Origin: a virus
Length of the DNA: 64,000 nucleotides
Reading direction: 5' to 3' (one strand)
IMG/VR virus record: IMGVR_UViG_3300037231_000119
Coordinates: 1-64,000 of that record
The translations under genes and the position numbers were made by a program. Each line of letters begins with the position of its first letter. Within the stretch, counting starts at the first letter, position 1. The notes below the pieces were generated by a model that saw nothing but the letters and a program-made list of their open reading frames with translations, was not told the DNA's origin and searched no databases. Below are positions 47,508 to 54,325 of this stretch, piece after piece.

Positions 47508-47846
47508 TCCGAAAAGTGAATTTTAAGGGGAATCTATAGTGCTCTTATCAAAAGGAACTAATATGTTTAATAAGAAGCTGTATAAGTTTATGATCAATGG
47601 TAAGAGATACTATACATGCGCCTATTCCGCCGATCAAGCATGGTTCTTCATTCAATGGCGCATTGAAAATGGTAACCCATAATATGCAAGTTAGAATTAG
47701 TTCTAATATATGTGATCTATCGGGAGTAGGGCTTGAGTACCTGCTAGACGACTCAGGATCTATTAGGGCGGTCTTTTGGAATGGCAATATAGATGGTTGC
47801 GAGACGATTCAGGGCAATTCAGAGATAACCAAGGGTGTTGCTTAAC

Positions 47847-47938
47847 TGTCTAAGGTTTTCAATCCGTATAAAAGATATACGGCATTCTTTTACTGCATAC
47901 ACGATTTTATTAGCTTTTATCTTGGCCCTTCGATTGCA
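47847..47938 (+). promoter_or_regulatory. sigma54 promoter P5 (44-bp core duplicated from P3)
   Basis: TTGGCCCTTCGATTGCA 47922-47938; UAS CGTATAAAAGATATACG 47865-47881. Confidence 0.85.
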
Positions 47939-47951
47939 ATACTATATAACC

Positions 47952-49894
47952 ATGAGAACGATAGAAATAACCTACAAGATCAAGGGAGAATTGAAAGAAT
48001 CGAGTTACAACGTTCGGACTAGTGGGGAAGCGATTAGGCTCCTTCTAAGCGGTCTGTCTAGACGTGATAAACTCAGTTTCAAAATAGTCAAAATATCAAT
48101 GATTTGAAAGGATTATATGGCCAAGATTATCGATTTAAAGACTCGGGAAGTGTTAGCTGATCTGCCAGTAAAGTTGACTAGTCGCGTAGTGACTCTTTGG
48201 GCATCTCCTAAGAAATTCAACTTGTATGCCATTGCCGTGACTTCCTTCGGTGCATCTACATATCTGGGAAATATAACGGGTCCCATCAAAACGATTACAA
48301 AGAAAGTAGGATAATGTGTTGAAACTTAAAAAGACTTATGAATTTGAAAAAATTGGCTTGAATGAAGTAATCGGATTGAAAGTTGCAATGGAAGAAGTTT
48401 TGCAACCAATTGTGAACCATCTAGAGCGGTCAATTCATTGGATTGATGATCTTAAGTTTTCCGAGACTGAGTACCGCTCTAGGGATGGTTTTATACCCTA
48501 TGAGTCAAATTGCGGTGGAATGGAATTGTGCGAGATTATCCCAAAGTGTGAGGAATATAACTTTTCATTCCTAGAATTTGGGGAATGTGACGAATGCAAT
48601 GGTGAAACGCAATGCGGTTATGAAGGTATGGAGTGTGCGGGCGATTCGGAGGGCCATAATGATGCTAAGTTGCGCGTATGGCTTAAGTTCGAAGGTATTG
48701 AGAATGGTATCATGAGTTTCTATCTCGTTCTATCTGGCGGCAATGGAGATGCGCCATACTTCAGGGAGAAGTCTTCTACTACATACTTTGAAAGTGAATT
48801 CAAAGCTTGCTCACTTGAGGCATTCAAACGAATCGCAACGGGGCATGTTGCCGAACTATTGAAGGTAATGAAGTAATTCAAAAGTGAATTTTTGAAAGGA
48901 ATATATGAATAAAGAAATCAAAGCATTGAACAATAAATTGGCCAACATTTCAGATAACGAATTTGCGATCAAACAAGAATTGCAACTGGCCTGGAATAAA
49001 GTGTTTGACGATATGAGTGTCCTTCGTGATGCAATTACCAAAGTTGAAGCGTCCAATGAGTACACTTGGGAGTCTAGAGGCGAGGATATTTGTTCCTGGA
49101 TTCGATTCGATACTAAGTCTTTTGATGATTGTGCTGAGTATCTGAAAGAATACTTGAGGAATGAACATTACGTCGAAATTGACTTCGAAAACGATGCTTT
49201 GTTGTATTCCATGGGTCCATCTATTATCATCAATGAGGATGGTGACGTCCTAGATCAAGACGGCGATAAATGGTTCATCAATAAGGATGATTATCGAGAC
49301 GAGGATTCTGGCGACTTGAATGAAGGTAAACGAAATGAATTGATTGAAGCTTATATGGAAAAAACGGGTTGCTATCCTGGAGTATTCCGCACCGACCGTC
49401 ATGGCAATGTTTTTGCGGTCAGTACTAAAGCCTGAAAAGTGAATTTTAAGGAGAACTAAACTATATGAACCACTACTTTACATTGTTTTTCACTGAAGAC
49501 TATGAGCCAACTGATCAAGAGATACATTACTTTGAAGCCTTTACAGGTCGGGAGATAGGTGTAGGAGATGGATTCATTAATGTGTATACGATTGACGAGA
49601 CCATCATAAAAGACTTGATCGATATTATCGGCGAATTCTACATCAGTGAAGTTAGTCCTGCTTTGACCGTAGAAGTGAATTTTAAGGAGAATTGATATGT
49701 ATACATTTATTGTTCTAGTAACCGATGAACCGATGCAGTCCTTCACAAGTGTAGTATCAGCTATTGATTATGCGGCCAGACATGTCTATCTGCCAGTGGA
49801 AAAAGGGCGTGCTTGTTGTAAGGCGCTTAATGAGGGAAGACCATATGCATATAGTTATGGATTTAAAGAAGTAGAAATTAGAGTGGAGAATTGA
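47952..49894 (+). other. small, mostly acidic CDSs (47952-48107, 48117-48314, 48316-48876, 48905-49435, 49465-49695, 49697-49894)
   Basis: Packed ORFs with SD sequences. Confidence 0.75.
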
Positions 49895-50049
49895 TATGAC
49901 CGCATTCGTAATCGGCTTAGGTATTGTCTGGCTAGTAACCGCCTTATCGGGAAAGGATTTCAAAGTCACGGGCTTTGGAGGCATCCTCCTCGCTATAGGT
50001 ATCTGTTATGGACTGGGATCTTTAGTTCTACTTCTTTTAAAGAGGTAGG

Positions 50050-50143
50050 TGTATAGCAGATTAACAGCCGACAATAAGTTACCCGAAAAGTGAATTTCAG
50101 CATCCAATAATTTCAAGTACTTAAGCTTGGCACAACAATAGCA
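50050..50143 (+). promoter_or_regulatory. sigma54 promoter P6
   Basis: TTGGCACAACAATAGCA 50127-50143; IHF-like TTTCAAGTACTTA; UAS TGTATAGCAGATTAACA 50050-50066. Confidence 0.85.
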
Positions 50144-50171
50144 ATAGATAGTAATAAGAGGTAATTTAAAA

Positions 50172-50582
50172 ATGCGATCACTACGGTCAAATCTAGTTCT
50201 GGTATCGGCCTACGGTTCTAAACTCTCGAATGAGCAAAATCATGCCAACCATGAGAAGGCCATTGAAATGCTTGAGAGAGACAACGTTCGATTCCAGGTA
50301 GTCAATGGAGTCTATAAGGGAGCCAAGGAGCTTGTATTCCTAATGGCTAGCACTGACACTGATACACATGACCAAAATGTGACGACCGCTTATATGTTAG
50401 GGCACTTGTTTAATCAAGAGAGTCTACTTGAAGTTCATAACGACAATACGGCGGTACTTCACTACTTGGGAGGCGAGAGCGTTAGCCTTGGGAAGTTTCA
50501 GGAAGTTAGTGAATTTGAAGCTTTGAGTCACGATTCATATACGCATGAGCCAGTATTGGATCGATATTTTGTGGTTAAGTAA
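50172..50582 (+). CDS. S-adenosylmethionine lyase (T3 SAMase-like)
   Basis: VLVSAY..L..E.N...H, G.YK..KE, FNQESLL, TAVLHY and LGKFQEV match T3 SAMase as recalled (VLVSAF, GCYRE, WEQDCVL, TAGLVY, GSFQEV). Confidence 0.8.
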   Translation: MRSLRSNLVLVSAYGSKLSNEQNHANHEKAIEMLERDNVRFQVVNGVYKGAKELVFLMASTDTDTHDQNVTTAYMLGHLFNQESLLEVHNDNTAVLHYLGGESVSLGKFQEVSEFEALSHDSYTHEPVLDRYFVVK

Positions 50583-50603
50583 TTAAAACTTAAGGAGAAT
50601 AGT

Positions 50604-52856: not shown

Positions 52857-52885
52857 TAAAAGTGAATTTTAACAAAGGAGTTTAT

Positions 52886-53203
52886 ATGAATAAGATCTTG
52901 ATCGGCTTGTCTTTCTTGGTAATGTCCTGTGGTTCTGGTTCCTCTAGTCCATTCGCCCCTTCTTGTCAGACGGGTCAGTTACTTGGATATGACAATCAAT
53001 GCTATTCCTGTAATACCGGTACCCCAGAATACGCATCGGGGGAATTTGGATACTGTAGTTCCATAAATTCTGGGGGAGTTACTTGTTGTTCTACGGAATT
53101 CTGGAACTATAATAACATTACTTGTGAGCCAAGAACCCCATGGTTGTGTTCGGATGCACTATGCCACTCTTCAAATATTGGAGTTTGTGTTTATCTTCCA
53201 TGA
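52886..53203 (+). CDS. Cys-rich lipoprotein
   Basis: VMSC lipobox; AAAGGAG SD. Confidence 0.75.
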   Translation: MNKILIGLSFLVMSCGSGSSSPFAPSCQTGQLLGYDNQCYSCNTGTPEYASGEFGYCSSINSGGVTCCSTEFWNYNNITCEPRTPWLCSDALCHSSNIGVCVYLP

Positions 53204-53229
53204 GAAGTGAATTTTAAGGAGAATTCTAT

Positions 53230-53660
53230 ATGACCAAATATGAAGAAAGTCAACAAGCTAAAAGAATTCTGGCCGGTCAGTTTTATGCCGCTCCACCATA
53301 TGAAGGATGGGCTAAGCTTTATGTGGACGCCGAACGTGGTATTCCAAAGGCTTGGTATAACGATTTCATTGACGAATTGGTTAGTGAAGATGTGCACTAC
53401 AGACATCAGCTTGAGGAGTCGGTGAGATATTTTGGGGTGCATTGGGTATGACAGACGTAGTTTTTAGGGCAGACTTAGAACCAATGAGCTGTTCAACTTG
53501 TAATGTTCCTCTGAAGAAAGCTTCATATGTTCCAGGAAACCATGGACTTTATTGTAATATATGTGTTGAATTCGTGGAAGAAATTGAAGAAGAGGGGGAG
53601 CAAGAAATTGTGGAAGATAGTGGGGTTGTGCCAGAAGTGAATTTTGAGGAGGCAGTATGA
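53230..53660 (+). other. two small CDSs (53230-53451, 53448-53660)
   Basis: SD and ATGA overlaps. Confidence 0.65.
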
Positions 53661-53863
53661 AAAGTGTTTTTCTGGTAGAGTCAGGAGAGAGATATGAGGG
53701 ATCGGTTGTTATAGGAGTTTATAGATCCCGAGGCGGTGTTGTTCAGGCAGCGATGGATGAACAGGAGGATCACGAAGGAAAATGGGTTAAGAACAATCAC
53801 TCTTCTTATTGAACCAATGGATCCGACTATGTGCGCATAACTGAAATTGACGTTGAGGAGTAA
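53657..53863 (+). pseudogene. 68-codon gene with an internal TGA (53810-53812)
   Basis: GAGGAGG SD; frame continues TNGSDYVRITEIDVEE to a TAA just before the next ATG. Confidence 0.6.
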
Positions 53864-53866
53864 AAT

Positions 53867-54055
53867 ATGGATTTTGTTAATGGAGATACTGTGATCATGA
53901 AGTCTGGTGGACCTACTATGATCGTTATAGATGAAAACACAAAGTATGGTTATGTAACCTGCGCATGGTTTGATAGAAATGGTGAAGTTCATCAAAATAA
54001 CTTTCTTCCCATTACATTGGAAAAATATAGGCGCCCAAGGCCAGGTCCAAGATGA
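53867..54055 (+). CDS. YodC/DUF2158-like protein
   Basis: GDTV.MKSGGP.M.V...V.C.WF. Confidence 0.85.
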   Translation: MDFVNGDTVIMKSGGPTMIVIDENTKYGYVTCAWFDRNGEVHQNNFLPITLEKYRRPRPGPR

Positions 54056-54157
54056 GTGCGCCAGGACCAACCAAGTTAGATAGGCAAATGGCCCATGTAT
54101 GTTTTCTATTGTCGATTGTGATTTTTGTGATAGTGTGGAAACTGAAATGAGTAATTT

Positions 54158-54325
54158 ATGAAATATTTGAAAGTGATTTTGCAGCCAATTAAAATTAAGG
54201 GTGACTTGGATGATGAAACCCAACTACAGCAGGATGTGTATGAGAAAGTAATGAATATGATCGAGTCGGAAACATTGTCGTTCCAGGTGGACGACGAGGA
54301 AGAGGAAGACGACTGTGACTTCTAA
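54158..54325 (+). CDS. 55-aa acidic protein
   Basis: MKYLKVIL...DDEEEEDDCDF. Confidence 0.6.
   Translation: MKYLKVILQPIKIKGDLDDETQLQQDVYEKVMNMIESETLSFQVDDEEEEDDCDF

What the first reader, a model, noticed from the sequence alone, without database searches (positions are those of the whole stretch)
47514..54180. Polar AAGTGAATTTT motif at gene boundaries across 6.7 kb
Nine exact plus-strand copies (47514, 48882, 49437, 49673, 51607, 52014, 52860, 53205, 53635) plus variants (48792, 50088, 51591, 54171). Most lie just before an SD. Two are inside gene ends, encoding EVNF. None was noticed elsewhere. It could be a translational operator or RNase site, a phage-specific promoter, a directional DNA signal, or a crossover core making these genes exchangeable cassettes.
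Basis: partly seen in the sequence, partly recalled or inferred. Interest (0 to 1): 0.7.

Follow-up and report, generated by a model that had tools for sequence, protein, structure and literature searches.

The report
Oriented gene-junction motif in peat phage
A 14-base, one-strand-only sequence (S-A-R-AAGTGAATTTT) sits directly before the ribosome-binding site or start codon of about ten small accessory genes in a 162-kb uncultured peat phage and its relatives; it is most likely a compact phage promoter core that also marks where genes get swapped, an interesting but not unprecedented kind of signal.

Summary
AAGTGAATTTT occurs 9 times, all on the + strand and all within 47514-53645. It occurs nowhere else on either strand of the whole 162,446-bp phage genome (chance expectation 0.08). 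Three unselected flanking bases (S-A-R) extend it to a 14-nt box.

Relatives from peat and bog metagenomes carry 2-9 co-oriented copies per contig, although their gene content is almost entirely different. BLAST homology ends repeatedly fall within about 12 nt of the motif.

The Shine-Dalgarno sequence (SD, 30 of 49 exact copies) or an SD-less ATG (5 of 49) begins exactly at the motif's last T. This phage places ATG or SD directly at the expected transcription start in its other three promoter classes. In one relative, four consecutive genes carry TTGACA plus an unconserved 18-19-nt spacer, then the motif.

- **Best reading (about 0.45):** a promoter -10/discriminator box whose 3' edge is the transcription start. 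The repeated copies serve secondarily as crossover points.
- **Rivals:** a stoperator-like operator, an RNA-level enhancer or processing site next to the ribosome-binding site, and a pure recombination scar.

No RNA data were available, so no mechanism is shown. It is a new member of a known kind (phage-specific start-associated motifs) and of moderate interest.

The parts
47514..47524 (+). Motif copy 1 (gaaAAGTGAATTTT). It lies 6 nt after the stop of gene 46902-47507 and is followed by AAGGGG and GTG 47539 / ATG 47563.
48882..48892 (+). Motif copy 2 (caaAAGTGAATTTT). It lies 5 nt after the stop of gene 48316-48876; SD GAAAGGA and ATG 48905 follow.
49437..49447 (+). Motif copy 3 (TGAaAAGTGAATTTT). 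The upstream TGA stop is 1 nt before it; AAGGAG and ATG 49465 follow.
49673..49683 (+). Motif copy 4. It lies inside the 3' end of gene 49465-49695 (..VEVNFKEN*); AAGGAG and ATG 49697 follow.
50088..50098 (+). One-mismatch copy (AAGTGAATTTC). It has a -35-like TTAACA at 50061-50066, 21 nt upstream. It lies 39 nt upstream of the sigma54-type promoter at 50127 and 73 nt before the SAM-lyase ATG at 50172.
   Evidence: SAM lyase PF23780
51591..51601 (+). One-mismatch copy (AAGTGATTTTT) in tandem with the next copy, 16 nt start to start.
   Evidence: D14
51607..51617 (+). Motif copy 5; AAGGGG and ATG 51630 follow.
52014..52024 (+). Motif copy 6. It lies 6 nt after the stop of gene 51630-52007 and 29 nt before ATG 52054 (PA14/collagen lipoprotein). 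The same arrangement is kept in relative L106.
52819..52858 (+). Intrinsic-terminator-like hairpin (13 pairs) plus a T-run, ending 1-2 nt before motif copy 7.
52860..52870 (+). Motif copy 7, directly after the terminator; AACAAAGGAG and ATG 52886 follow. Homology with L106 ends at this copy's 3' edge.
53205..53215 (+). Motif copy 8 (TGAgAAGTGAATTTT); AAGGAG and ATG 53230 follow.
53635..53645 (+). Motif copy 9. It lies inside the 3' end of the zinc-ribbon gene 53448-53660 (..PEVNFEEAV*); GAGGAGG and ATG 53657 follow.
46869..46908 (+). Left copy of a 40-nt direct repeat of a gene junction (95% identical to 47530-47569). Together the two copies bracket gene 46902-47507 plus motif copy 1.
   Evidence: D4
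47530..47569 (+). Right copy of the 40-nt junction repeat.
   Evidence: D4
48792..48802 (+). Doubtful variant (AAGTGAATTCA, 2 mismatches) inside the coding sequence of 48316-48876.
54171..54181 (+). Doubtful variant (AAGTGATTTTG, 2 mismatches) inside the first codons of gene 54158-54325. It is not kept in the G001 orthologue.

Best explanation
S-A-R-AAGTGAATTTT is the core of a compact, phage-clade-specific promoter. Its 5' half (A-R-A-A-G-T) occupies the -10 position and GAATTTT is the discriminator. Transcription would start at the purine that follows the last T. Each accessory gene, or short gene group, in the distal half of the early-type island would then get its own mRNA beginning directly with the Shine-Dalgarno sequence (SD) or, in SD-less cases, with the AUG (a leaderless mRNA).

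Copies that also carry TTGACA 18-19 nt upstream would be read by the host sigma70-type holoenzyme. Single-box copies probably need an additional, unidentified factor. Because the same box is repeated at many gene boundaries, homologous recombination between copies swaps, inserts and deletes genes as a by-product, as proposed for PeSLs in T4-type phages.

Shown here: the anatomy, distribution, conservation and breakpoints. Inferred: promoter activity, the position of the transcription start, and the identity of the recognising factor.
For: 1. **Polarity and confinement.** All copies are co-oriented with the genes, and there are none elsewhere in 162 kb.

2. **Conservation across a clade.** Relatives G001 and G003 and about 20 peat and bog contigs carry 2-9 same-strand copies each. 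Protein content has turned over between them. The unselected flank is conserved: A at -2 in 69 of 74 copies and R at -1 in 74 of 74, with nothing conserved further upstream. Third-codon positions are invariant where the motif is read as PEVNF.

3. **Sharp 3' boundary.** Of 49 exact copies, 30 have the SD starting at the next base and 5 have an SD-less ATG there. In paralogues on L132 the start is either motif+AGGTGAG+ATG or the motif fused to ATG/GTG. The base after the motif is a purine in 61 of 74 copies.

4. **Same geometry as the phage's other promoter classes.** Sigma70-type: TTGACw-N16-17-TAnnnT plus 6 nt, then ATG, at 131315, 116462 and 37546. Late box: CAATCTTA plus 4-7 nt, then ATG. 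Sigma54-type at 47922, followed about 13 nt later by ATG. If ARAAGT is taken as the hexamer, 5-7 nt separate it from the abutting ATG.

5. **Two-box copies.** Four consecutive G003 genes carry gggatatagGTCAATTTTGACA, an unconserved spacer, then yAAwAGTGwwTTT, SD and ATG. Similar copies occur at L095 9920, L106 275 and window 50061. Seven of these 8 have A at the -11-equivalent position, against 35 of 74 overall. All have at least one core mismatch, as expected if a good -35 compensates for a weaker box.

6. **Position after a terminator.** Copy 52860 follows a strong terminator-like hairpin, and no other promoter-like site serves the seven or more genes downstream.

7. **Distribution among gene starts.** In the island, gene starts that are not coupled to the gene before carry a sigma54-type promoter or the motif, or both in the case of the SAM-lyase gene. 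Most starts lacking both overlap or abut the upstream stop.

8. **Distance to the start varies.** In some copies the gap is 23-100 nt. That suits a 5'UTR but not an element bound to the ribosome-binding site.

9. **A diverged sigma-like protein is encoded at 110832-111866.** It matches phrog_351 at E 6e-7 and sigma region 2 of PDB chains. So non-canonical promoter recognition exists in this phage.
Against: - No transcript data exist, so promoter activity is untested.
- The box is not a canonical -10. With ARAAGT as the hexamer, the -11-equivalent base is G in about half the copies. With SARAAG as the hexamer, the -7-equivalent base is G.
- Uniform conservation through the T-run up to the SD is unusual for a discriminator and would suit a protein or RNA recognition site.
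- The TTGACA association is not statistically significant across the 75-instance set. It rests on three or four lineages, and in G003 and L095 the TTGACA is half of a palindrome that could be an operator.
- The only sigma-like gene is single-copy and is more economically assigned to the late CAATCTTA box.
- A promoter class confined to one 6.7-kb island, with copies only 236 nt apart, is unusual.
- SD-less starts could instead be translated by termination-reinitiation: 12 of 53 upstream genes stop at the motif's own TGA.
Confidence: 0.45

Rival explanations
1. Operator or 'stoperator'-like site. A phage-encoded DNA-binding protein recognises the asymmetric 14-bp box. Where the box overlaps a promoter's -10/+1 region it represses initiation. 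At gene junctions it acts as an orientation-dependent roadblock, shutting off the accessory island when it is not wanted. This is how repressor gp71 works in mycobacteriophage L5.
For: The site is asymmetric and about 13-14 bp long. Its orientation relative to transcription is strict, and it lies in very short intergenic spaces overlapping stops and starts. Some copies overlap the -10/+1 region of TTGACA-containing promoters. Tandem copies occur at 14-16-nt spacing. All 14 positions are evenly conserved. The SAS paper contrasts the L5 stoperators as 13-bp sites that regulate transcription (PMC3203893).
Against: No repressor candidate was identified, and lysogeny is not shown. The only integrase-family hit is a 188-aa protein, and the nearest cultured relative, Mx1, is known from my own knowledge as a virulent phage. 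Sites are confined to 6.7 kb rather than spread genome-wide. The model gives no reason for the SD or ATG to begin exactly at the motif's last base, nor for the copy placed right after a terminator.
Confidence: 0.2
2. RNA-level element next to the ribosome-binding site. AAGUGAAUUUU in the mRNA would be a translational enhancer or operator, or an endonuclease processing site, that lets internal cistrons of long sigma54-driven transcripts be translated independently. Known parallels are the T7 gene-10 epsilon, the cspA upstream box, or a RegA-type repressor site.
For: About 70% of exact copies abut the SD or ATG. Genes directly downstream of sigma54-type promoters lack the motif, while internal genes have it. 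The motif is A/U-rich and I saw no conserved hairpin around the copies on reading the sequence; no folding was run. GA|AUU fits the RNase E RN|WUU preference (my own knowledge). The upstream stop is often the motif's own TGA, which would favour coupling.
Against: About a fifth of exact copies are 23-100 nt from the next start. At 50088 a promoter lies between the motif and the gene. In two-box copies the predicted transcript starts at or after the T-run and so would lack the motif. No complementary RNA is encoded in the genome. No RegA or RegB homologue was found, although those family searches also rang in none of the control genomes. No Rfam family matches. Fourteen conserved nucleotides are far more than S1 or RNase E require.
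Confidence: 0.2
3. Pure recombination linker or scar. The box would have no regulatory role and would persist only because gene cassettes spread by short-homology or site-specific recombination at it.
For: Homology between G000 and L106, G003, L107 and L119 starts or ends within about 12 nt of motif edges. A 40-nt junction duplication brackets one gene plus motif. Islands of relatives share few genes, and those are in shuffled order. Tandem copies could be 'empty' junctions.
Against: The box is a sharp 14-nt block that stays perfectly conserved across phages whose neighbouring proteins are only 36-51% identical, and whose flanks are unrelated. Neutral scars would decay along with their flanks. 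The box has no dyad symmetry and intergenic spaces are too short for an attC-like site. No integron-type integrase is adjacent; the divergent 332-aa ORF has no integrase domain. Any gene-sized exchange must break in these 25-nt spacers anyway.
Confidence: 0.1

Closest known systems
Start-Associated Sequences (SAS) of Cluster K mycobacteriophages (PMC3203893)
   Same: A short (13-bp) asymmetric repeat with 11-19 copies, nearly all in one orientation. It is restricted to the non-structural half of the genome and lies a few bases from start codons. It is conserved across subclusters in front of unrelated genes, the upstream stop sometimes lies inside it, and it is absent from the host genomes. 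Its function is still unknown.
   Different: SAS contains the SD core itself (GGGATAGGAGCCC) and sits 3-7 bp from the ATG. Here the box lies 5' of a separate SD or replaces it. The sequences are unrelated. There is no ESAS-type 17-bp inverted repeat, although G003 has a different palindrome upstream. The phage lineage and host are different.
PeSL (promoter-early stem-loop) cassettes of T4-type phages (PMC2839356, PMC4122927)
   Same: A repeated regulatory motif flanks small ORFs of unknown function in hyperplastic regions. Indels and replacements between relatives break at the motif, so regulation and modular shuffling are coupled.
   Different: A PeSL is a composite of a sigma70 early promoter and a terminator stem-loop. 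Here there is a 14-nt single box without a hairpin: only 1 of 9 window copies follows a terminator. There is no canonical -35/-10.
[quoted passage not shown] 1997)
   Same: A 13-bp asymmetric site in one orientation relative to transcription, lying in short intergenic spaces, with one class overlapping a promoter.
   Different: Stoperators are spread over the whole genome of a temperate phage and bind a known repressor. Here the sites are confined to one island, and no repressor or lysogeny is shown.
Single-box phage promoters (T4 late TATAAATA; this phage's own CAATCTTA box)
   Same: A short -10-type box without a -35, placed 4-7 nt before the transcript start, often directly before the SD or a leaderless ATG.
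   Different: The sequence differs, the conserved block is longer (14 nt including the discriminator), it is confined to accessory genes, and the recognising factor is unknown.
T7 gene-10 epsilon enhancer and the cspA 'upstream box' (my own knowledge)
   Same: A conserved A/U-rich 9-13-nt element immediately 5' of the SD.
   Different: Those act in single mRNAs and are proposed to pair with 16S rRNA. Pairing could not be tested here because the host is unknown, and many copies are not next to an SD.

Membership tests
SAS (Cluster K mycobacteriophages) | Asymmetric repeat of about 13 bp, many copies, one orientation, restricted to the non-structural region | tested here: met
   9 exact copies plus 2-3 variants, all on the + strand, within 6.7 kb of small accessory genes
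SAS (Cluster K mycobacteriophages) | The repeat itself contains the SD core and lies 3-7 bp from the start codon; consensus GGGATAGGAGCCC | tested here: not met
   The box carries no SD. A separate SD follows it, or the ATG abuts it, and the sequence is unrelated
PeSL (T4-type phages) | Composite of a sigma70 early promoter and a stem-loop terminator | tested here: not met
   Only the 52819-52858 hairpin precedes a copy; 3 of 75 instances overall have one. No -35/-10 consensus is present
PeSL (T4-type phages) | Lies at indel or replacement breakpoints in hyperplastic regions of related phages | tested here: met
   BLAST homology ends lie within about 12 nt of motif edges in five pairwise comparisons. 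Gene content is shuffled between relatives
L5-type stoperator | Asymmetric 13-bp site, one orientation relative to transcription, in intergenic spaces | tested here: met
L5-type stoperator | Bound by the phage repressor; blocks elongation; sites spread genome-wide in a temperate phage | not testable with these tools
   Binding cannot be tested. The distribution is confined to one island, which argues against the genome-wide feature
Sigma70-type promoter | -35 TTGACA, 17±1 bp spacer, -10 TAnnnT, start 6-8 nt downstream | tested here: inconclusive
   Eight copies have TTGACA-like hexamers 20-21 nt before AAGTG, which gives AAAAGT at an 18-19-nt spacer. Most copies have no -35. Canonical promoters of this phage look different
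Integron attC / cassette array | 57-141-bp imperfect inverted repeat with a GTTRRRY core at each cassette end; adjacent IntI integrase | tested here: not met
   Intergenic spaces are about 25-30 nt and the box has no dyad symmetry, as seen by reading the sequence; no inverted-repeat search was run. The divergent 332-aa ORF is not an integrase. A 188-aa integrase-family ORF lies 3 kb away
Known RNA families (Rfam) | Match to a curated covariance model | tested here: not met
   No hit at E <= 1 in 43000-55500

The most novel reading that the evidence does not exclude
The box is a self-contained, portable 'stop-and-restart' junction with three roles. It closes the upstream reading frame, using its own TGA and the TAA formed with AAGGAG. 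It defines a new mRNA 5' end read by a so-far unrecognised phage factor. It also provides the short homology that lets any ORF be plugged in or out. Together these would amount to an integron-like cassette system without attC sites or a dedicated integrase, used by a clade of Mx1-related peat phages to turn over anti-defence genes.
Probability: 0.15. Interest if true: 0.65.

Novelty: new member of a known kind. Interest (0 to 1): 0.42.

Why it matters
Conserved, oriented motifs at gene starts are among the few handles on regulation in uncultured phages. This one marks the accessory, probably anti-defence island (a SAM lyase, a weak HicA-like match, lipoproteins) of a peat clade distantly related to Myxococcus phage Mx1. 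It can be used to find such islands in short metagenomic contigs: one 19-nt pattern retrieved about 20 of them.

If it is a promoter, it defines a fourth promoter class in a phage that already combines sigma54-type, sigma70-type and a single-box late class, with widespread leaderless starts. If it is also the crossover point, it is a second, independent example of the PeSL principle that regulatory repeats drive modular gene shuffling. It also offers a comparison for the still unexplained SAS elements of mycobacteriophages.

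Tried and rejected
- **RNA evidence.** No RNA holder was listed among public runs. Only the probable source peat DNA run and two small-share DNA runs were found. A look-up of an island protein found only the source DNA contig.
- **Nucleotide search of cultured phages.** No match.
- **15-nt pattern in IMG/VR.** Almost all hits were single chance matches; only L003/G001 was a relative.
- **19-nt pattern in 185,579 prokaryote genomes.** Fifteen scattered single hits, at chance level, so no prophage or host was found.
- **Trans-acting antisense RNA.** No complement was found in the genome, even allowing G:U pairs.
- **Coding explanation (EVNF/KVNF peptide).** Upstream genes meet the motif in all three frames, so it is not a conserved peptide. 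The TGA frame is only modestly enriched, 26 of 53, p = 0.013.
- **Terminator-promoter composite as a general rule.** Rejected; 3 of 75 instances have one.
- **Integron-like reading.** Rejected; see the membership test.
- **Sigma54 enhancer-binding protein, sigma70 regions 2 and 4, T7-type RNA polymerase, RegA, RegB.** None was detected in the genome. The searches for T7-type RNA polymerase, RegA and RegB rang in no control genome either, so they are weak negatives.
- **Literature search for the 11-mer.** It returned only primers.
- **Mx1.** The nearest cultured relative lacks the motif.
- **16S rRNA complementarity.** Not testable, because the host is unknown.

Full report
**Observation**

AAGTGAATTTT occurs nine times in the window, all on the + strand between 47514 and 53645. 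Dinucleotide shuffles give a mean of 0.08 copies and never more than one. The window is the first 64 kb of a single 162,446-bp phage record. In that whole genome the 11-mer has no other copy and its reverse complement never occurs. After the CRISPR repeat that spans the record ends, it is the most over-represented 11-mer.

One-mismatch copies at 50088 and 51591 are intergenic. The 54171 site is not kept in the orthologous gene of a relative, so I treat both as doubtful.

**Setting**

The copies lie in the distal half of a + strand array of about 35 small genes (43.4-54.5 kb). Identifiable products are:
- an S-adenosylmethionine lyase (50172-50582);
- a DUF7666/pentapeptide-repeat protein;
- a PA14/collagen-like lipoprotein;
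- a weak HicA-like protein.

The other island ORFs scanned gave no significant family match. The proximal half of the array carries sigma54-type promoters (TTGGC-N8-TTGCA), including a 51-nt unit repeated at 45329 and 47903. These were first noted by the scan (e1-5734665) and are visible.

The phage is a myovirus with a DnaE-type polymerase and GroEL. Its major capsid protein is 46.7% identical to that of Myxococcus phage Mx1, the only cultured relative found. The DNA comes from a peat metagenome.

**Anatomy from 75 instances**

Relative G001 (166 kb, capsid 87% identical) has five co-oriented copies in the syntenic island. The more distant G003 has three or four. A metagenome scan for the motif plus AAGGAG returned 50 contigs. 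About 20 of them, mostly 1-6 kb and from peat and bog samples, carry 2-9 same-strand copies; L132 has nine in 6.6 kb.

In the pooled set, the three bases before the 11-mer were not used for selection yet are conserved: S at -3, A at -2 in 69 of 74 copies, R at -1 in 74 of 74. Nothing further upstream is conserved. The element is therefore a 14-nt asymmetric single box.

Downstream of the 49 distinct exact copies:
- 30 have an SD (AAGGAG, AGGAGG or AGGTGAG) beginning at the very next base;
- 5 have an ATG there with no SD;
- the remaining 14 are a mixture. Some have an SD followed only by a mini-ORF, some lie 23-100 nt from the next start, and three lie inside coding sequence read as PEVNF.

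Paralogous genes on L132 start either as motif+AGGTGAGTT+ATG or with ATG/GTG fused onto the last base of the motif.

Upstream genes end at the motif's own TGA in 12 of 53 cases and at a TGA 4 nt earlier in 6. The TGA frame is modestly enriched, at 26 of 53 (p = 0.013). Tandem copies 14-16 nt apart occur in three genomes.

**Evidence on mechanism: a DNA-level promoter core is the best reading**

- **The phage habitually places translation signals at the transcript start.** Canonical TTGACw-N16-17-TAnnnT promoters are followed after 6 nt by ATG at 131315, 116462 and 37546. The late box CAATCTTA is followed after 4-7 nt by SD-less ATGs at many structural genes, and the sigma54-type promoter at 47922 runs straight into ATG (lead from e1-5734679 and e1-5734677). 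If ARAAGT is read as a -10-type hexamer, the abutting ATGs lie 5-7 nt downstream, which is the same geometry.
- **Two-box copies exist.** In G003, four consecutive genes carry gggatatagGTCAATTTTGACA, then a spacer conserved in length but not in sequence, then yAAwAGTGwwTTT, SD and ATG. L095 9920, L106 275 and window 50061-50098 are arranged alike. Seven of these eight copies have A at the -11-equivalent position, against 47% overall. All have at least one mismatch in the core, as expected if a good -35 relaxes the demand on the box.
- **One copy follows a terminator.** Copy 52860 follows the only strong terminator-like hairpin of the region, and no other promoter-like site serves the genes from 52886 to 54536.
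- **Two genes have both signals.** The SAM-lyase gene has the motif followed by a sigma54-type promoter. In G001 a sigma54-type promoter is followed by three motif copies. Tandem promoters are ordinary; an RBS-bound RNA element 73 nt from its gene, with a promoter in between, is not.
- **Gene starts lacking both signals are mostly coupled.** Island gene starts without either a sigma54-type promoter or the motif mostly overlap or abut the preceding stop.

**Weaknesses of the promoter reading**

The box is not a canonical -10 in either register. The conservation of GAATTTT is unexplained. The TTGACA association is not significant across the whole set, and in two lineages the TTGACA is half of a palindrome. 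No factor has been identified. The genome encodes one diverged sigma-like protein (110832-111866), which more naturally serves the late box. No enhancer-binding protein, sigma70 region 2 or 4, T7-type polymerase, RegA or RegB was detected. No RNA data could be found.

**Cassette behaviour**

Islands of G000, G001 and G003 share only a handful of genes, and those are in shuffled order. BLAST homology ends at the motif in several comparisons:
- G000 against L106 starts 10 nt before copy 52014 and ends 12 nt after the start of copy 52860;
- G000 against G003 starts at the 3' edge of copy 51607;
- L107 against G000 starts at the 3' edge of L107's copy;
- G003 against L119 ends 24 nt after the motif start.

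A 40-nt junction sequence is duplicated at 46869 and 47530 and brackets gene 46902-47507 plus copy 47514. However, the spacers are only about 25 nt long and the motif fills them, so gene-sized exchanges would break there anyway. The sharp conservation of the box across phages whose neighbouring proteins are 36-51% identical argues that it has a function of its own. Recombination would then be a by-product, as proposed for PeSLs (PMC4122927).

**Rivals**

- **Stoperator-like operator.** It fits the asymmetry, polarity, overlap with promoter cores and even conservation. It does not explain the sharp 3' boundary, the copy after a terminator, or the confinement to one island, and no repressor is known.
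- **RNA-level enhancer, operator or processing site.** It fits the 70% of copies that abut the ribosome-binding site. It does not fit the distant copies or the two-box copies, whose transcripts would lack the motif. No antisense partner, Rfam family or known regulator homologue was found.
- **Pure recombination scar.** It is contradicted by the block-like conservation.

**Comparison with known systems**

The closest described phenomenon is the Start-Associated Sequence of Cluster K mycobacteriophages (PMC3203893). It shares the copy number, polarity, restriction to non-structural genes, association with starts of unrelated genes and an unknown function. It differs in containing the SD itself. 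PeSLs share the shuffling behaviour but are promoter-terminator composites. L5 stoperators share the asymmetry and polarity. The 11-mer is not mentioned in the searchable literature except as primers, and Mx1 lacks it.

**Verdict**

This is a real, conserved, clade-wide cis element. I rate it a new member of the known kind 'phage-specific start-associated or promoter motifs in hyperplastic regions'. Its mechanism is unresolved, with a promoter core favoured at about 0.45. Interest is moderate.

Noticed in passing
window 1-620 and G000 162140-162446: A CRISPR-like array with a 60-nt period runs across both ends of the record, so the record is circularly permuted or the array is split. The repeat begins GTTTTAGGTGATACGGATGGCAGAAAAG. 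The scan had already noted a TnpB-like effector next to it.
   Followed up: no
G000 110832-111866 (L081:6832-7866, + strand): A 344-aa protein with weak but consistent similarity to sigma factor region 2 (phrog_351 E 6e-7; top PDB hits are almost all sigma factors, residues 139-192). On my reading it lacks the aromatic -10-recognition residues. It is single-copy and is a candidate for reading the late CAATCTTA box.
   Followed up: partly
G000 genome-wide, e.g. 131315, 116462, 37546 (-), 158441 (-), 64390 (-), 47922: Start codons without an SD sit 4-7 nt after the -10 or late box, or about 13 nt after the sigma54 GC element, in three promoter classes. This suggests extensive use of leaderless mRNAs in this phage-host system.
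   Followed up: partly
L073 (G003) 3770-3790, 4378-4395, 5050-5066, 5622-5640; L095 9912: A conserved module gggatatagGTCAATTTTGACA (palindrome GTCAA-TT-TTGAC) lies at a fixed distance upstream of degenerate motif copies before four consecutive genes. It could be a -35 plus an operator.
   Followed up: partly
window 45329-45379 and 47903-47953: A 51-nt unit carrying the sigma54-type promoter is duplicated at 98% identity, so promoter units are also repeated in the island.
   Followed up: no
window 49867-49898 and 50581-50605: Two motif-free junctions look like decayed copies: AGAAGTAGAAATTAGAGTGGAGAATTGATATG, and AATTAAAACTTAAGGAGAATAGTAT (76% identical to two motif junctions).
   Followed up: no
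window 50880-51200: A 15-nt-period array (about 20 units) encodes N-S-G-x-x pentapeptide repeats inside the DUF7666 protein gene 50604-51584.
   Followed up: no
window 40118-40684 (+): A short (188 aa) Phage_integrase-family tyrosine recombinase (PF00589, E 8e-18) lies 3 kb upstream of the island. The divergent 332-aa ORF 41655-42653 has a CapR/treble-clef zinc-finger hit, not an integrase hit.
   Followed up: partly
L071 8199 (G001) and L121 1098, L131 1793: The motif, read as the peptide PEVNF, recurs inside coding sequences of apparently unrelated small acidic proteins with all third-codon positions unchanged. This points to nucleotide-level constraint inside genes.
   Followed up: partly
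L080:16441-19554 (- strand; G000 100441-103554): A 1037-aa protein contains an intein splicing domain with a LAGLIDADG endonuclease (Pfam).
   Followed up: no
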